From assembly GCF_009914755.1 (NCBI RefSeq), contig NC_060929.1: a stretch of 64,000 nucleotides of DNA. The stretch is one strand, 5' to 3'. The position numbers and the translations under genes were made by a program. Origin of the DNA: the human T2T-CHM13v2.0 reference genome, Homo sapiens. The notes beneath the pieces are model-generated. The model did not search any database and was not told where the DNA came from. It saw only the letters and a list, made by a program, of their open reading frames with translations. Below, one piece after another: positions 36,566-49,126 of this stretch (positions are counted from its first letter, which is position 1; each line of letters starts with the position of its first letter).

Positions 36566-36696
36566 ACCAATGAGTGGAACAAGAATGATGACCGGCTACT
36601 GCAGGCCGTGGAGAATGGAGATGCGGAGAAGGTGGCCTCACTGCTCGGCAAGAAGGGGGCCAGTGCCACCAAACACGACAGTGAGGGCAAGACCGC
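36566..36696 (+). CDS. RAI14: Internal coding exon of RAI14 (ankycorbin), first ankyrin-repeat region: [43 protein letters not shown](A)
   Basis: Peptide matches the RAI14 N-terminus as I recall it (follows MKSLKAKFRKSD, precedes FHLAAAKGH); the paralog UACA differs here. Polypyrimidine tract + tacag acceptor before 36566, gc|gtaagc donor after 36696; 131 nt, phase 0 in, phase 2 out; CpG-enriched relative to flanks. Confidence 0.96.
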
Positions 36697-40577: not shown

Positions 40578-42025
40578 TCTATTTTCTAGAGAGCTTTCGT
40601 GGTAATTTTGCGCTGGAATCTACAGTTGCCTGTCTGTCTAGAGGCTTGATTTTGGCCTTCAAGGTCTTTCCTCTGGCTCTGCCCCACTTACCTACATCCT
40701 GTCTCCCCGCTGTTTCTTCTGGAAGTGGAGCTGTCTGCTCCCGCCCTCCCCACAGGTCAGAACGTCCACCTGTGCACCCAGGTTCTATGTCCAATCCAAA
40801 ATGCCACCCTCCCTGGTTCTCTTCCGCCTTTTTGACTTTTCTTCTCTTTGAAATACTAGAAATCTTGATTTAGAACCCATTATATTCGATTATTTTATTC
40901 TATTTATTTAGAGATGGGTCTTGCCATATTGCCCAGACTTGATTTGAACGCTTGGCCTCAAGTGATCCTCCTGCCTCAGCCTCCTGAGTAGCTGGGACTA
41001 TAAGGCATGCACTACCACACCCACCTTTATTCTATTATATCAAATGAACAGGAACGACAACAGAAATGTCTCCATTCTAAGAAAACCTTTGTTTTCTGAA
41101 AGACTTGAATCCCGTAGAGTACAGTAAAGCTCCCTAAGGACAGGGATGGTACAATCTTATTGTGTTGGTCTTTCCCATTGTTCTAGGCCCAAAGGAGGCC
41201 TTCATTTGGGATTTGTGTAAATAACTTTTCAGTGTGTTCTTGTGGAGAAAACATTCTTTTTTTGCTGATAATATCTTATGGGTAAATTGCTTAGGGGTGA
41301 ATTAACTTGGATTCAGAGGGGAAAGAATTCTTCTGGTGAACATCACAACCTGACTTGGCCCCCAAGCTTCCACGGCAATTTAAATAGAGAAGTACTCAAC
41401 CTTTACCACCTAGAGAGCCAGGCAGTCTAGAAAGTCCCAACAATGTGGCAACAAAGGCAGCCATCTCCACAGACGTTCTCCAGAAGCCTCCATAACCCAA
41501 GGTCAATAACCAGATGGGTGGTTGGGTAATGCCTTAGACTTTTGAGTTTCTTTCTGGAGTATTTTCTTTCAGGGAAAGATGAGAATGCATGCCAGGAAAT
41601 TTTCTTCCTCTAAGACTGATCAAAGAGGGGTTAAAAAAAAAGTAAAAGCAATTGAATGACTGGAATTCATTTAGGAAAAGAATAAAGGAAGGGTGGTGTC
41701 TTGGGTAGGAAGGGAACAAAATAGAGCAGAGCCAAGAGTTATAGCTGCAGCCTGTGTTTATGGAGTCAGGCCTGGCGTGCCTCTGCCCAGCTGTTCTCTT
41801 TCCATGGTGGATGTGAGGAAGTGGGAGGAGGTCAATGTCCTCAAACCTCTTACCGTAGAAGAGTCTAATTGTTTCAAGATGGGTTCCCTACATTTGGATG
41901 TGCATTTAATTAAAGTTATGTGTGTTTGTCTTACGAACAACCAGACTAAATAAAATCACTGCCGGCACTGTAGTATTTGAACAAATACCACCTGGGCATG
42001 TGTGTGTAGATATAAGGAGTGTGTG

Positions 42026-42027
<2 letters not shown>

Positions 42028-42073
<46 letters not shown>
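42028..42073. repeat. (TG)23 microsatellite
   Basis: Directly visible. Confidence 0.97.
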
Positions 42074-42080
<7 letters not shown>

Positions 42081-42954
42081 CTGTATCATTTTATGTTGCC
42101 CACTTTTCAGAAACCTGATCTTTTTGGCTATGAAAGCAAGAATTTGTGAGAGTATTTTTAGATGACTCTGTGGAGCTTGACTATAAAGTGGGAGAGGCAG
42201 GCCTTGAACTTTAGAAATCACTATAATAAGGGCTTCTCTGGCTGGTGGTTTGTTGCACATTCTCCCTTCCTGTTTTCTCAGTATAGGGATGTATTAGATA
42301 TTTTACACCAGCAGTTCAGTCTTGGAAATCGAGTTATACCACCTGATCAGCTCTCTCCAGTTCTTCTCACGTACAGCTGCCAAATTAATTTACCTAAAAC
42401 CACTACATGTTATTTGTGCAATTGCAGCCTCCTACCTTCCCTGTGAAATCACCCTATGTCTTTTCTAAGACCTGTTGATATTTGTCAGAGTGATAAACTG
42501 AAGAATGTAATTGCTATATCCACTCTGCTTTGAGTCATTTTTGAAGTTGAGATAACCTCTTCTTATACTTTGCAAATATGCTTAAATGTTGTGTTTCATT
42601 AATCTAGTTGGGAGGTACTCCCTGGGTCCAAAATGTTCCAGACTTTTTCATAAGTAAATACAAAAGGAGAAAATATGCTCCTGGCCTCAAGATGCATAAC
42701 ACCTAGTCGGAAAGACAAGGCCAATGAAAATACTGGAGAATAATCAGATGCTAACCTGTAAAATACTGCATGTAAGGGGTTCAGGACAGAAGAGCTCATG
42801 AGACACTGGAGATGCTAAGAAATGCTTCCTGCCTGAAGTGTGATATGAGGTCGGCCTTGTAGAATGGAACCAGTAGTGGATTATACTGTAACCAGGGTGG
42901 ATACAGGCAAATGGGGTTCAGGTAACAGCATGAACAGAGGCCACCCTAAATTGA

Positions 42955-43247
42955 TTGTTTTGGTTTGGTTTTTTGAGACGGAGTCTTGCTCAGGCTAGAG
43001 TACAGTGGAGTGGTTTCGGCTCACTGCAACCTCCTGCTTCCTGGGTTCAAACTGTTCTCCTGCCTCAGCCTCCCACATAGCTGGGATTACAGGTACCCAC
43101 CACCACACCTGGCTAATTTTTTATTTTTAGTAGAGGTGGTGTTTCACCATGTTGCCCAGGCTGGTCTCGAGCTCCTGACCTCAAGTGATCTGCCCGCCTT
43201 GGCCTCCCAAAGTGCTGGGATTACAGGCGTGAGCCACTGCACCCGGC
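42955..43247 (-). mobile_element. AluS
   Basis: Reverse-complement Alu; TSD caccctaaatt. Confidence 0.95.
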
Positions 43248-43943: not shown

Positions 43944-46237
43944 TGATATGGTTTGGCTTTGTGTCCCCACCCAAATCTCATCTTGAATTGTACTCCCATA
44001 ATTCCCATGTGTTGTGGGAGGGACCTGGTGGGAGATAAGTTGAATCCTGGGGGCAGTTTCCCCCATACTGTTCTTGCGGTAGTGAATAAGTCTCACGAGA
44101 TCTGATGATTTTAGTAGGGGTTTTTGCTTTTGCTTCTTCCTCATTTTTCTCTTGCCATTGCTATGTAAGAAGTGCCTTTCACTTTCTGCCATGATTCTGA
44201 GGCCTCCCCAGCCATGTGGAACTGTAAGTCCAATTAAACCTCTTTTTCTTCCCAGTCTCAGATATGTCTTTATCAGCAGCATGAAAATGGACTAACATAG
44301 TAAATTGGTACCAGTAGAGTGGGGCATTGCTGAAAAGATACATGAAAATGTGGAAGTGACTTTGGAACTGGGTAACAGGCAGAGGCTGGAACACTTTGGA
44401 GGACTCAGAAGAAGACAGGAAAATGTGGGAAGGTTTGGAACTTCCTAGAGACTTGTTGAATGGCTTTGCCCAGAATGCTGATAGCGATATGGACAATAGG
44501 GTCCAGGCTGAGGTGGTCTCAGATGGAGATGAGAAACTTGTTGGGAACTGGAGTAAAGGTGACTCTTGTTATGTTTTAGCAAAGAGACTGGTGGCATTTT
44601 GCCCCTGCCCTAGTGATTTGTGGAAATTTGAACTTGAGAAAGATGATTTAGGGTATCTGGCAGAATAAATTTCTAAGTAGCAAAGCATTTAAGAGGTAAC
44701 TTGGGTACTGTTAAAGGCATTCAGTTTTATAAGGGAAGCAAAGCATAAAAGTTTGGAAAATTTGCAGCCTGACTATTAGATAGAAAAGAAAAATTCATTT
44801 TCTGTGGAGAAACTCAAGCCAGCTGCAGAAATTTGTATAAGTAGCAAGGAGCCTTCCCAAGACCATGGGGAAAATGTCTCCAGGCCATGCCAGAGACCTT
44901 CACGGCAGCCTCTCCCACCACAGGCCAGGAGGCCCAGGAGGAAAAAGTGGTTTCATGGGCTGGGCCCATGGTCCCTGTGCTGTGTGCACCCTAAGGACTT
45001 GGTGCCCTGTGTCCCAGCTGCTCCAGCTGTGGCTGAAAGGGGCCAACATAGAACTTGGGCTGTGGCTTCAGAGGGTAGAAGCCCCAAGCCTTGGCAGCTT
45101 CCACATGATGTTGAGCTTACAAGTATACAAAAGTCAAGAACTGGGTTTGGGAAACTACACCTGGATTTCAGAAGATGTATGGAAACACCTGGATGCCCAG
45201 GCAGAAGTTTGCTGCAGGGGTGGGGTGCACATGGAGAACCTCTGCTAGGGCAATCCAGAAGGAAATGTAGGGCTGGGATCCCCTCACAGAGTCCCTACTG
45301 GGGTACCAGCTAGTGGAGCTGTGAGAAGAGGGCCACAATCCTCCAGCCCCCAGAATGGTAGATTCACCAACAGCTTGCACCATTCACCTGGAAAAGCTGC
45401 AGACACTCAACACCAGCCCGTGAGAGCAGCTGGGAGGGAGCCTGTACACTGCAAAGCCACAGGGGCGGAGCTGCACAAGACCATGGGAGCCCACCTCTTG
45501 CATCAGTGTGACCTGGATGTGAGACCTGGAATCAAAGGAGATCATTTCGGAGCTTTAAAATTTGATTGCCCCGCTGGATTTCAGACTTGTGTGGGCCCTG
45601 TAACCACTTTGTTTTGGCCAATTTCTCCCATTTGGAATGGGTGTAATTGCCCAATACCTGTACCCCCATTGTATCTAGGAAGTAATGAGCTTGCTTTTGA
45701 TTTTACAGGCTCCTAGGTGGAAGGGACTTGCCTTGTCTCAGATGCGACTTTGGACTGTGGACTTTTGGGTTAATGCTGAAATGAGTTAAGACTTTGGGGG
45801 AACTGTTGGGAAGGCATGACTGATTTTGAAATTTGAGGATTGAAATCTCTCCACATGAGATTTGGAGGGACCAGGGGCAGAATGATATGATTTGGCTCTG
45901 TGTCCCTACCCAAATCTCATCTAAAATTGTACTCCCATAATTCCTACATATTGTGGGGGTACCCAGTGGGAGATAATTTGAATCATGGGTGTGGCTTCTC
46001 CCATACTGTTCTTGCAGTAGTGAGTAAGTCTCACGAGATCTGATGGTTTTAGTAGGGGTTTCCACTTTTGCATCTTCGTCATTTTTCTCTTGCCACCACC
46101 AAGTAAGAAGTGCCTTTCACCTCCTGCCATGATTCTGAGGCCTCCCCAGCCATGTGGAACTGTAAGTCCAATTAAACCTCTTTTTCTTCCCAGTTTTGGG
46201 TATGTCTTTATCAGCAGCATAAAAACAGACTAATACA
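43944..46237 (+). mobile_element. Complete THE1 (A/B-like) MaLR element: LTR 43944-44299, internal 44300-45882, LTR 45883-46237
   Basis: Two direct ~355-bp LTRs, THE1-int, TSD attgg/attgc. Confidence 0.95.
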
Positions 46238-46677
46238 ATTGCTAAGATCACAGCATTTTTCATTTTAGAGCTATTTTCAAAGTTGGATTAAGTATATTGA
46301 GAACAAAGGATTTTAGACACTTAAATGGGTAATTGTTGCCCAGGGTCAAAGCTCTTTGGCTTTGCTTTTCCTCTCTCTGTTCCCTCCACTGGCTGGACCT
46401 GCCCCAAATGCAGAGGTCAGGAGAGCCTGGGAAACGTAGTTGGCTGTGATAGACAGCAGAGTAAGGGAGGGTGGAGATGGATCTCAGAACCCACAGCAGC
46501 GAGCGACCTGCACTCAGCCGCTATCACACTGGGGCTGCTGGAGCGGGAGATTCTCATGCTGAGCAGCAACCAGCCTGCTCAGAGGCTGGGGTACATGAGA
46601 TCATTAGCGTGTGCCAGTTCTTTAGAAGCACTTCTGCTTTCCCTGCTCAGTTCCTGCCTTCCAAGATGCTGTCGCTG

Positions 46678-46727
46678 CCACCGCCACCGCCCCCACCACC
46701 CCCACCACCCCCACCACCCCCCACCCC
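46678..46727. repeat. C-rich (CCCCCACCA)n tract; G-quadruplex-capable on - strand
   Basis: Five runs of 4 or more C with short linkers. Confidence 0.9.
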
Positions 46728-46852
46728 ATTCCACCAAGTCTGGCGTATCATTCAAGGCCCAATTTACCATCTCTTTCCTGAAGCCATTTCTAAAATTTCC
46801 TGAGTGAGTGCTGTCTTGCCACTGCCTCTCTGAAATCACCTAGGATTTGGTG

Positions 46853-47487
46853 GGTTTTGGTTTCCTACGTACTTGTCTGATTTCTGTTATCAAATTATCA
46901 AGGCGAGAGCCCAATCTTTCCTACTAAGAAAGGAATTGTTTCTTATTAATTATGTTAATACTGAATGTCCCAACACCGGGCTAGGTTCTCATGGAGAGCC
47001 TCTGCTAGGGCAGTGCAGAAGGGAAATGTAGGGCTGGGACCCCCTCATAGAGTCCCTACTGGGGCACCACCTAATGGAGCTGTGAGAAGAGGGCCACCAT
47101 CCTCCAGACCCCAGAATGGTAGATTCACCGACAGTTTGCACCGTTCACCTGGAAAAGCTGTAGACACTCAACACTAGCCCGTGAGAGCAGCTGGGTGGGA
47201 GGCTGTACACTGCAAAGCCACAGGGGCGGAGCTGCACAAGACCATGGGAGCCTACCTCTTGCATCAGTGTGACTTGGATGTGAGGGACTCTGTGAGGGGG
47301 TCCCAACCCTACATTTCCCTTCTGCACTGCCCTAGCAGAGGTTCTCCATGAGCACCTAGCCCAGTGTTGGGGCATTCAGTATTAACATAATTAATAAGAA
47401 ACAATTCCTTTCTTATTAGGAAAGATTGGGCTCTCGCCCTGATAATTCGATAACAGAAATCAGATAAATACCTAGGTAACAAAAACC
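46853..47487. repeat. Long inverted repeat: arms 46853-47057 and 47283-47487, 225-bp spacer
   Basis: Manual ungapped alignment, 14 mismatches in 205 bp. Confidence 0.95.
46984..47284 (+). mobile_element. Isolated THE1-internal fragment, copy of ~45224-45523
   Basis: Colinear with the upstream THE1-int; no LTR, TSD or poly-A. Confidence 0.9.
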
Positions 47488-47749
47488 GTGTCATTCATTC
47501 AGCCAACAGTTTATTCATTCAACTTAGAGATCTCGTCAATTTCCATCAGGTGTTTCCCATCTGATGCTCTCAATCACCCTGAAGTAAATTTACGAAGAGG
47601 GAAGTGGGGATCAGAGAAGTTCTGAAATTAGTACAAATCGCCTGTTCTACATACTGGAGTCTGGGGGTGTGTCAGTGAATACAACATAGAAATCATTTGC
47701 CCTAATGGAGATTTCATAATGCCCAAGTACCATTTCCAGACTATCCTTA

Positions 47750-48196
<447 letters not shown>

Positions 48197-48837: not shown

Positions 48838-49126
48838 TTTTTTAAGACAGACTCACTCGGTAGCCCAGGCTGGAGTGCAGTGGTGTGATCTCAGCCTCAC
48901 TGTAACCTCTGCCTCCTGGATTCAAGCAATTCTCATGCCTCAGCCTCACGAGTAGCTGGGATTTCAGGCATGTGCCACAATACTTAGCTAATTTTTGTAT
49001 TTTTTAGTAGAGATGTGGGTTTCACCATGTTGGCCAGGCTGGTCTTAAACTCCTCACCTCAAGTGATCCACCTGCCTTGGCCTCCCCAAGTGCTAGGATT
49101 ACAGGGATGAGCCACTGCGCTCAGCT
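48838..49126 (-). mobile_element. AluS
   Basis: Reverse-complement Alu. Confidence 0.93.

What the first reader, a model, noticed from the sequence alone, without database searches (positions are those of the whole stretch)
46853..47487. 205-bp-arm inverted repeat made of unique DNA plus THE1-int, inside the RAI14 pre-mRNA
Seen: 46853-47057 is the ungapped reverse complement of 47283-47487 (14/205 mismatches by hand, ~93%), with a 225-bp spacer. About 130 bp of each arm is sequence I do not recognise as a repeat and about 75 bp is THE1-internal, so this is not two independent transposon insertions, and a repeat masker would show only a small THE1 piece. The inner junction has 2-nt microhomology (gatgtg-AG-ggactc). 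Established: closely spaced long inverted repeats are unstable and depleted in the human genome, and long intronic dsRNA is an ADAR substrate. Inference: an old fold-back duplication that has persisted and would form a ~200-bp non-Alu RNA stem that could be edited, processed to small RNAs or affect splicing; the spacer or arms might also invert or gene-convert recurrently.
Basis: partly seen in the sequence, partly recalled or inferred. Interest (0 to 1): 0.8.

Follow-up and report, generated by a model that had tools for sequence, protein, structure and literature searches.

The report
Old fold-back duplication in RAI14 intron
A real 205-base inverted repeat in a RAI14 intron looks like the scar of an old DNA-copying accident that pasted in a piece of a nearby retroelement and then copied back on itself, and nothing found here suggests it has a function.

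Summary
Arms 46853-47057 and 47283-47487 pair over 205 nt with 14 mismatches and a 225-nt spacer. As RNA the region folds at -421 kcal/mol, z = -30.

The outer 131-133 nt of each arm occurs in only two places in the whole T2T genome, which are the two arms themselves. The flanks are single-copy. That refutes a MITE.

New here: the retroelement part (46984-47284) is not an independent insertion remnant. It is a direct copy, 279 of 300 identical, of 45224-45523, inside a full-length LTR element (43944-46238) 1,760 bp upstream. It shares 8 private states with that element against 10 other genomic copies.

Arm-to-arm divergence (14 of 205) equals source-to-copy divergence (21 of 300; Fisher p = 1.0). 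Both are below the element's LTR-LTR divergence (41 of 353). No derived change is shared by the two arms.

Best reading: one compound template-switch or break-repair event added 504 nt. That is 300 nt copied from upstream, then a 204-nt snap-back copy of the nascent strand.

There is no sign of arm homogenisation or of selection for pairing. ADAR editing of the hairpin is plausible but untested. This is a large member of a known kind, of modest interest.

The parts
43944..46238 (+). Full-length LTR retroelement (MaLR/THE1-like; the family name is recalled, not tested). LTRs at about 43944-44299 and 45883-46238. It is flanked by ATTGG / ATTGC, a possible 5-bp target duplication.
   Evidence: Direct repeats D1 and D6. 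LTR alignment has 312 matches, 41 mismatches and 3 gap columns. Sequence read.
45224..45523 (+). S: the source segment inside the element's internal region, the template for the copied piece.
   Evidence: 93% match to 46990-47282 against <=89% for the other 39 scored copies. Direct repeats D2 and D7. 279/300 identical, with 8 private shared states.
46853..46983 (+). U: outer left arm, single-copy DNA, taken as the native copy.
   Evidence: Genome search finds only the two arms, even at E<=10. It is contiguous with the single-copy left flank.
46984..47057 (+). Inner left arm: the first 74 nt of the copy T of source S.
   Evidence: (D7, D2).
47058..47282 (+). Spacer (loop): the rest of copy T, in the same orientation as S.
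   Evidence: (D2).
47283..47356 (-). Inner right arm: inverted copy of the first 74 nt of T. The AG at 47283-47284 overlaps the end of T (fold-back junction J2).
   Evidence: (I8, I9).
47357..47487 (-). Outer right arm: inverted copy of U. It carries junction J1 (U|T) in mirror image, so it was copied from the left arm after J1 existed. J3 lies at 47487/47488.

Best explanation
This is a fossil of one compound template-switch or break-repair event in a RAI14 intron.

PROPOSED ORIGIN (inferred)
- A 3' DNA end at the end of the single-copy segment U (46983) was extended on a template 1,760 bp upstream, the internal region of the neighbouring LTR element (45224-45523), for 300 nt.
- The released nascent strand snapped back on itself at a 2-nt AG overlap.
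- It was then extended for 204 nt, copying back through its own first 74 nt and through U.
- It was rejoined to the downstream sequence at 47488, with no microhomology.
- The net result is a 504-nt insertion (46984-47487) that created a 205-nt inverted repeat with a 225-nt loop.

SHOWN: the three-part homology, the junction positions, the single-copy state of U, and the equal divergence of arm-arm and source-copy pairs.

INFERRED: the order of the steps, that the left arm is the native one, that it was a single event, and the enzymology (MMBIR-like, or fold-back synthesis plus end joining).

AGE (inferred): divergence is about 7%. That is roughly 0.57 of the age of the LTR element's insertion, or about 16-36 Myr with recalled primate neutral rates of 1-2.2e-9 per site per year.

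SINCE THEN it has drifted neutrally. In RAI14 pre-mRNA it should fold into a long imperfect hairpin, with longest perfect runs of 43 and 35 bp. That is a likely ADAR substrate, removed with the intron and without selected function.
For: - Inverted repeat confirmed and strongly folding.
- U has 2 of 2 genome matches, both being the arms. The flanks are single-copy apart from a simple repeat.
- T and S are 279/300 identical. Each is only 258-268 of ~300 identical to 10 other copies. There are 8 columns where S = T and at most 1 of 10 other copies agrees.
- In the genome search S is the best non-self hit at 93%, against <=89% for the remaining 39 scored of 4241 first-look candidates.
- S lies inside an intact LTR-internal-LTR element, so it is the donor and was not moved.
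- Junction J1 (U|T) is present in both arms, so the right arm was copied from a strand that already carried J1.
- The spacer continues the S homology in direct orientation, so the left arm plus spacer is the first-made part.
- Divergences: arms 14/205, S-T 21/300 (Fisher p = 1.0), LTRs 41/353. Arms and S-T pooled against LTRs gives p = 0.02.
- Polarised by 10 other copies, the 74-column triple region has 5 changes on S, 3 on the left arm, 1 on the right arm and 0 shared by both arms. That is a star tree.
[quoted passage not shown] Fold-back synthesis plus end-joining capture, with median 2-bp microhomology, in yeast (PMC11724301, passages). Template-switch mutations creating inverted repeats in human-chimp comparisons (PMC5453318, passages).
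Against: - No pre-insertion allele could be examined, because no primate or other human assemblies were at hand. Which arm is native, and whether it was one event or two, rests on parsimony.
- The zero shared-arm changes come from only 74 columns. Even a long interval between two steps would give zero with a probability of several percent (my estimate, not from a call).
- Microhomology is short (2 nt at J2; at most 2 nt certain at J1) or absent (J3), and ~7% later divergence blurs the junctions.
- The copied tracts (300 and 204 nt) and the template distance (1.76 kb) exceed those of the short template-switch events described in the papers read: tens of bp with templates within ~100 bp; yeast fold-backs 2 to ~150 bp.
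- A 3-nt GTG sits directly outside both arms (46850-46852 and 47488-47490). It could hint at insertion of the whole 635-nt unit.
- One column (47034/47306) needs a parallel change or a conversion.
- Neutrality is inferred from two weak internal tests only.
Confidence: 0.68

Rival explanations
1. Two separate events. First a 300-nt templated insertion or duplication of the element's internal piece next to U. Later an independent fold-back (inverted) duplication of U plus the first 74 nt.
For: Each step alone is a simpler, known mutation type. The 74-column triple region is too short to exclude a moderate interval. The confidence intervals of 14/205 and 21/300 overlap widely.
Against: Divergences are the same (6.8% against 7.0%, p = 1.0). 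None of the changes is shared by both arms against the source. The fold-back junction sits exactly at the 3' end of the copied piece, which is expected if the end of the nascent strand primed the fold-back.
Confidence: 0.2
2. The whole 635-nt palindromic unit was inserted as a block into a GTG target, as a foldback-type mobile element, MITE or captured hairpin DNA.
For: GTG lies directly outside both arms. The structure is terminal-inverted-repeat-like.
Against: The outer arm has no other copy in 3.1 Gb, with 2 of 2 matches being the arms at E<=10. The search is BLAST-type behind a word filter, so only very old copies could hide. The inner part has its donor 1.76 kb away. A 3-nt match is expected by chance about 1 in 64 per alignment (my estimate).
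Confidence: 0.05
3. The retroelement piece at 46984-47284 is an older, independent fragment that was later gene-converted by the neighbouring element. Only the fold-back is a local duplication.
For: Nearby homologous repeats do convert each other (established knowledge). The 8 private shared states would also arise by conversion.
Against: It needs an isolated 300-nt internal fragment without LTRs. It also needs a conversion tract that spans the fragment exactly end to end, with the same age as the fold-back.
Confidence: 0.04
4. The hairpin is maintained because it does something in RAI14 RNA, as an ADAR-dependent regulatory duplex, a small-RNA precursor or a splicing modulator.
For: It is the strongest local duplex in the window. 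It lies in the sense strand of a transcribed intron (hub annotation). Template-switch hairpins in introns have given rise to miRNAs (PMC10710096, abstract).
Against: Arm divergence equals the neutral internal comparator. There are 4 G.U against 5 A.C among transition mismatches in the sense strand, so no bias. No Rfam family matches inside the arms at E<=1 other than one chance-level hit at E = 0.95. No paper holds RAI14 with 'A-to-I' and 'intron' (0 papers). RAI14 with 'RNA editing' gave 2 papers, judged irrelevant from their titles and abstract starts.
Confidence: 0.06

Closest known systems
Microhomology-mediated templated insertions (MMBIR/FoSTeS-type serial template switching), including complex germline events in humans (PMC8421209, passages read)
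   Same: The inserted DNA is copied from nearby templates. One segment is an inverted copy of adjacent sequence. Several templates are used in one event. Overlaps at the switch points are short. There is no gross rearrangement.
   Different: The tracts here are 300 and 204 nt and one template is 1.76 kb away. The tool in that paper looks for inverted templates within 100 bp and read-length insertions. One junction here has no microhomology. This event is old and present in the reference rather than a fresh variant.
Fold-back (snap-back) synthesis at a break followed by end-joining capture (yeast, PMC11724301, passages read)
   Same: A 3' single strand folds on itself at a tiny microhomology, is extended, is unwound, and is joined to the other end with 0-5 bp microhomology. 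This creates a longer inverted repeat with a loop.
   Different: The yeast events are 2 to ~150 bp, mostly under 14 bp, with a 41-nt loop. Here the fold-back is 204 nt with a 225-nt loop, and it follows a first round of copying from a distant direct template.
Short template-switch mutations of the four-point model, which create hairpins and some primate miRNAs (PMC5453318, passages; PMC10710096, abstract)
   Same: A reverse-complement copy of neighbouring sequence produces a perfect stem in a single event, often in introns.
   Different: Those events are tens of bp and are a single switch and return. That model explicitly leaves out multiple successive switches. This stem is about six times the ~35-bp stem length that the abstract gives as preferred for miRNA primary transcripts. 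No small RNA is known from it.
Intronic inverted Alu pairs as ADAR substrates (established knowledge; PMC7006430, passages read)
   Same: An inverted duplicate within one pre-mRNA, predicted to form long dsRNA that is removed with the intron.
   Different: It is not made of two independent repeat insertions. It is better paired and more closely spaced than the other 12 inverted pairs in this window. It falls below that paper's 'long, nearly perfect' class of >300 bp and >96%.
MITE / foldback transposon
   Same: Long terminal inverted arms around a short middle, with 3 identical bases outside both ends.
   Different: It has no other copies in the genome. The inner arm and middle derive from a neighbouring retroelement.

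Membership tests
Templated insertion by serial template switching (MMBIR-like) | Every inserted segment has a nearby template | tested here: met
   46984-47284 matches 45224-45523 at 279/300. 47283-47487 matches the reverse complement of 46853-47057 at 191/205.
Templated insertion by serial template switching (MMBIR-like) | Microhomology at the switch points | tested here: inconclusive
   J2 has a 2-nt AG overlap. J1 has at most a GG overlap that can be assigned to either side. J3 has none. The junctions have aged by ~7% divergence.
Templated insertion by serial template switching (MMBIR-like) | A pre-insertion allele lacking the insert exists in outgroups | not testable with these tools
   The genome search states that the assembly has no relatives held. 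No primate collection is available.
Templated insertion by serial template switching (MMBIR-like) | All segments are of one age (single event) | tested here: met
   14/205 against 21/300, Fisher p = 1.0. No change is shared by both arms in 74 columns. The power of this test is low.
MITE / foldback transposon | Multiple dispersed copies of the terminal repeat | tested here: not met
   The outer arm has 2 matches in 3.1 Gb, both the arms, at E<=10.
MITE / foldback transposon | Target-site duplication | tested here: inconclusive
   GTG lies on both sides. Three nt is compatible with chance.
ADAR-edited intronic dsRNA | Both arms lie in one transcript and form a long duplex | tested here: met
   The fold gives a 205-pair stem with 43- and 35-bp perfect runs. 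The transcript strand comes from the hub's annotation, not from a call.
ADAR-edited intronic dsRNA | Clustered A-to-G changes in RNA reads | not testable with these tools
   No RNA-seq or editing database was at hand. Literature searches gave nothing specific. RAI14 is absent from the 3 held supplements of PMC7006430. The supplement of PMC10628436 was unreadable.
Known miRNA or other Rfam family | Match to a curated covariance model | tested here: not met
   The only hit inside the arms among 5 at E<=1 is IRES_HepA, at 12.6 bits and E = 0.95. The others lie in the downstream Alu.
LTR retroelement (MaLR/THE1-like) for 43944-46238 | Two LTRs in direct orientation around an internal region, a target duplication, and high copy number | tested here: met
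   The LTRs are 312/353 identical. The flanks are ATTGG/ATTGC. The internal piece has 4241 first-look candidates in the genome. The subfamily name was not tested, because no repeat library was available.

The most novel reading that the evidence does not exclude
A single germline template-switch event created, in one step, the strongest duplex of the RAI14 pre-mRNA. This non-Alu 205-bp hairpin would be hyper-edited by ADAR and/or diced into small RNAs in RAI14-expressing tissues. That would make it a datable, ape-lineage example of de novo birth of a long hairpin RNA locus from unique DNA, at a scale several-fold larger than the template-switch hairpins described so far.
Probability: 0.07. Interest if true: 0.55.

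Novelty: new member of a known kind. Interest (0 to 1): 0.27.

Why it matters
This is a clean, internally datable example of a multi-template replication or repair error preserved in the human reference. The donor, the first copy and the snap-back copy are all still readable side by side. The event therefore carries its own molecular clock (source against copy) for testing whether the arms were homogenised, and they were not.

It shows that a closely spaced inverted repeat can persist for roughly 7% of sequence divergence with no detectable homogenisation of its arms.

It also shows that template switching can build ~200-bp RNA stems from unique DNA, not only miRNA-sized ones.

For RAI14 itself nothing suggests a consequence. 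The practical value is as a non-Alu test substrate for editing and dsRNA studies, and as a caution for repeat annotation. By inference, a masker would label the middle as a retroelement fragment and miss the structure.

Tried and rejected
- **MITE or multicopy outer arm:** rejected by genome-wide searches at E<=0.001 and E<=10. The flanks were also searched for any repeat family crossing the arm boundaries, which would have told which arm is native. Only simple-repeat hits to a (CCACC)n-like tract appeared, and nothing crossed a boundary.
- **Independent retroelement remnant:** rejected by the 93% match to the neighbour and the 8 private shared states.
- **Tandem duplication of a 1,760-bp unit followed by loss of most of the second copy:** considered and set aside. 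No other direct repeat links 45524-46983 with sequence after 47284.
- **Right arm as the native copy:** set aside on parsimony. It would require copying both strands of the source and re-creating junction J1 in mirror image.
- **Rfam scan:** no family in the arms.
- **Literature on editing at this locus:** RAI14 with 'A-to-I' and 'intron' gave 0 papers. RAI14 with 'RNA editing' gave 2 papers, unrelated by title and abstract start. RAI14 is not in the 3 readable supplements of PMC7006430. The supplement of PMC10628436 was unreadable, so it may still bear on this.
- **Microhomology readings at J1 and J3** (a possible GGTG overlap, and GTG flanks): looked at by eye and left as undecidable without the ancestral allele.

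Full report
**1. Observation**

The inverted repeat is real and lies at the stated coordinates.
- The repeat finder reports arms 46853-47057 and 47283-47487, 205 nt, 93% complementary, 225 nt apart.
- A base-by-base count gives 14 non-Watson-Crick positions of 205, ungapped. Complementarity ends abruptly at both the outer and inner edges.
- Folded as RNA, 46840-47500 gives one long stem at -421.3 kcal/mol. Twenty dinucleotide shuffles give -202.4 +/- 7.2, so z = -30.
- Among the 13 inverted pairs of at least 100 nt within 1.5 kb in the 64-kb window, it is the longest, the best paired and the closest spaced. The other 12 are 76-89% paired with 306-1368 nt between the arms.

**2. What the arms are made of**

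The outer part of the arm (46853-46985) was searched against the whole assembly (3.1 Gb, 24 contigs).
- It has two matches, the two arms themselves, at E<=0.001 and again at E<=10.
- The left flank plus outer arm (46560-46985) and the outer right arm plus right flank (47355-47800) also found only themselves. The one exception is short hits to a (CCACC)n-like simple tract in query positions 113-178, about window 46672-46737.
- The search is BLAST behind a word-based first look, so very old repeats (MIR/L2-like) could go unseen. A transposon family young enough to keep 93% arm identity would not.

**3. The new point: the retroelement part has a donor next door**

The inner arm plus spacer (46986-47282) was searched against the genome.
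- It hit 4241 first-look candidates, of which 40 were scored.
- The best non-self match, at 93%, lies in the same window at 45230-45521. The other 39 scored places are at 89% or less.
- The repeat finder shows this as direct repeats 45261-45523 / 47022-47284 (94%) and 45224-45265 / 46984-47025 (86%), with an offset of 1760-1761 nt.
- A global alignment shows homology from 45224/46984 to 45523/47284 and none outside it.

The donor segment, S, lies in the internal region of a full-length LTR element at 43944-46238.
- Its two LTRs are 312 of 353 aligned bases identical.
- It is flanked by ATTGG and ATTGC.
No repeat library was available, so the family name is recalled and not tested.

S and its copy T were aligned with ten other genomic copies of the family.
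- S and T are 279/300 identical to each other.
- Each is only 258-268 of about 300 identical to the ten others.
- In eight columns S and T share a base that at most one of the ten others has.
- T is therefore a copy of this particular neighbour, not an independent insertion remnant.

**4. Anatomy and junctions**

Reading left to right:
- single-copy flank A;
- U, 46853-46983, single-copy;
- T, 46984-47284, a direct copy of S; its first 74 nt form the inner left arm and the rest forms the spacer;
- an inverted copy of the first 74 nt of T, 47283-47356;
- an inverted copy of U, 47357-47487;
- single-copy flank B.

The three junctions are:
- **J1 (U|T)** occurs in both arms, once in each orientation. 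The right arm was therefore copied from a strand on which J1 already existed.
- **J2** is the fold-back point. S homology ends with ...GATGTGAG at 47284 and the right arm starts at 47283.
- **J3 (47487/47488)** shows no overlap.

At J1 the first two bases (GG) could belong to either side. A longer overlap cannot be judged without the ancestral allele.

**5. Order and number of events**

The spacer continues the S homology in direct orientation, so the left arm plus spacer is the first-made stretch and the right arm is its snap-back copy. The opposite polarity would need both strands of S to be copied and J1 to be re-created in mirror image, so I set it aside on parsimony.

The three copies provide an internal clock.
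- Arms: 14/205 differences (6.8%, Jukes-Cantor 0.072).
- S against T: 21/300 substitutions plus one 1-nt indel (7.0%, JC 0.074). Fisher p = 1.0 against the arms.
- LTR against LTR: 41/353 (11.6%, JC 0.126). The pooled duplicates against the LTRs give p = 0.02.

The S-T differences were polarised with the ten other copies.
- 12 fall on the S lineage. 9 fall on the T lineage. One more, at 46987, is placed on the T lineage because the right arm agrees with S, giving 10.
- In the 74 columns present in all three copies there are 5 changes on S, 3 on the left arm, 1 on the right arm and none shared by the two arms.

That is the star pattern expected if copying from S and the fold-back happened together. 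With 74 columns the power is low, so two events close in time remain possible (rival, 0.2). One column (47034/47306) needs a parallel change, because the right arm carries the base of the other ten copies while S and the left arm share another.

**6. Mechanism**

- Shown: the templates, their orientations, the junction positions and the equal ages.
- Inferred: a break or collapsed fork at the end of U. The 3' end was extended on S, 1.76 kb behind, for 300 nt and then released. The single strand folded back at AG and was extended for 204 nt on itself. It was released again and joined to B without homology.
- This is serial template switching of the MMBIR type. Equivalently, it is the hybrid of microhomology-primed synthesis and end-joining capture shown in yeast. 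There, fold-back inversions of 2 to ~150 bp form with a 41-nt loop, and the far junction has a median 2-bp microhomology (PMC11724301, passages).
- The four-point template-switch model explains inverted repeats created in one step. It deliberately leaves out long-range and multiple successive switches (PMC5453318, passages).
- Such events have seeded intronic miRNA hairpins (PMC10710096, abstract).
- This locus belongs to that kind at a larger scale.

**7. Age (inference)**

The event has about 0.57 of the divergence of the element's LTRs. With recalled neutral rates of 1-2.2e-9 per site per year, it happened roughly 16-36 Myr ago. It should therefore be shared by apes and perhaps Old World monkeys. 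This was not tested.

**8. Does it do anything?**

The hub's annotation places it in a RAI14 intron on the sense strand, about 10 kb after the exon at 36566-36696. The transcript would carry a 205-pair stem with perfect runs of 43, 35 and 22 bp. By established knowledge of ADAR substrates, that should be editable in the nucleus and then be discarded with the intron.

Three tests that could be run here give no hint of selection.
- Arm identity equals that of the S-T pair, so there is no homogenisation or constraint.
- Of the nine transition-type mismatches, four are G.U and five are A.C in the sense RNA, so there is no strand bias. The other five mismatches are transversion-type.
- No Rfam family matches the arms beyond a chance-level hit at E = 0.95.

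The literature gave nothing specific.
- No paper in the searched library holds RAI14 together with 'A-to-I' and 'intron'.
- The two papers holding RAI14 and 'RNA editing' are unrelated by title and abstract start.
- RAI14 is absent from the three readable supplements of the genome-wide long-dsRNA survey PMC7006430. That survey's 'long, nearly perfect' class (>300 bp, >96%) this stem would not reach anyway.
- The supplement of PMC10628436 could not be read.

From recalled work on inverted Alu pairs, a spacer of a few hundred bases and several percent divergence already greatly reduce instability at the DNA level. Persistence of this repeat is therefore not in itself surprising.

**9. Verdict**

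The fold-back origin and non-MITE nature are right. The donor relationship was missed. Function and recurrent conversion are unsupported.
- It is a new, unusually large and well-preserved member of a known kind of mutation, most likely neutral. Interest is modest, at about 0.27.
- Primate orthologues would settle the polarity and the number of events. Editing and small-RNA data would settle the RNA side.

Noticed in passing
window 43944-46238: A full-length LTR retroelement (MaLR/THE1-like by recall). Its LTRs are 88% alike and a likely 5-bp target duplication, ATTGG/ATTGC, flanks it. It is the donor of the copied piece.
   Followed up: yes
window 46850-46852 and 47488-47490: The same three bases (GTG) lie directly outside both arms of the inverted repeat. 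This may be chance, a trace of the joining step, or a target duplication.
   Followed up: partly
window ~46672-46737: A C-rich simple repeat of (CCACC)n / (CCACCCCCA)n type lies about 120 nt upstream of the left arm. It was the only part of the flanks with other genomic matches. Such tracts can stall replication, which might bear on why a switch happened here.
   Followed up: no
window 47806-48088 (+), 42991-43247, 48852-49125: An Alu lies directly downstream of the right arm (two partial SRP-RNA matches). It forms inverted pairs with Alus at ~43.0-43.2 kb and ~48.9-49.1 kb (71-87% complementary). These duplexes would compete with the hairpin in the same intron.
   Followed up: no
window 47034 / 47306: At one column the right arm carries the base found in all 10 other family copies, while the donor and the left arm share a different base. 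This is a parallel change or a small conversion.
   Followed up: partly
window 42019-42084: A (GT)n microsatellite of about 65 nt.
   Followed up: no
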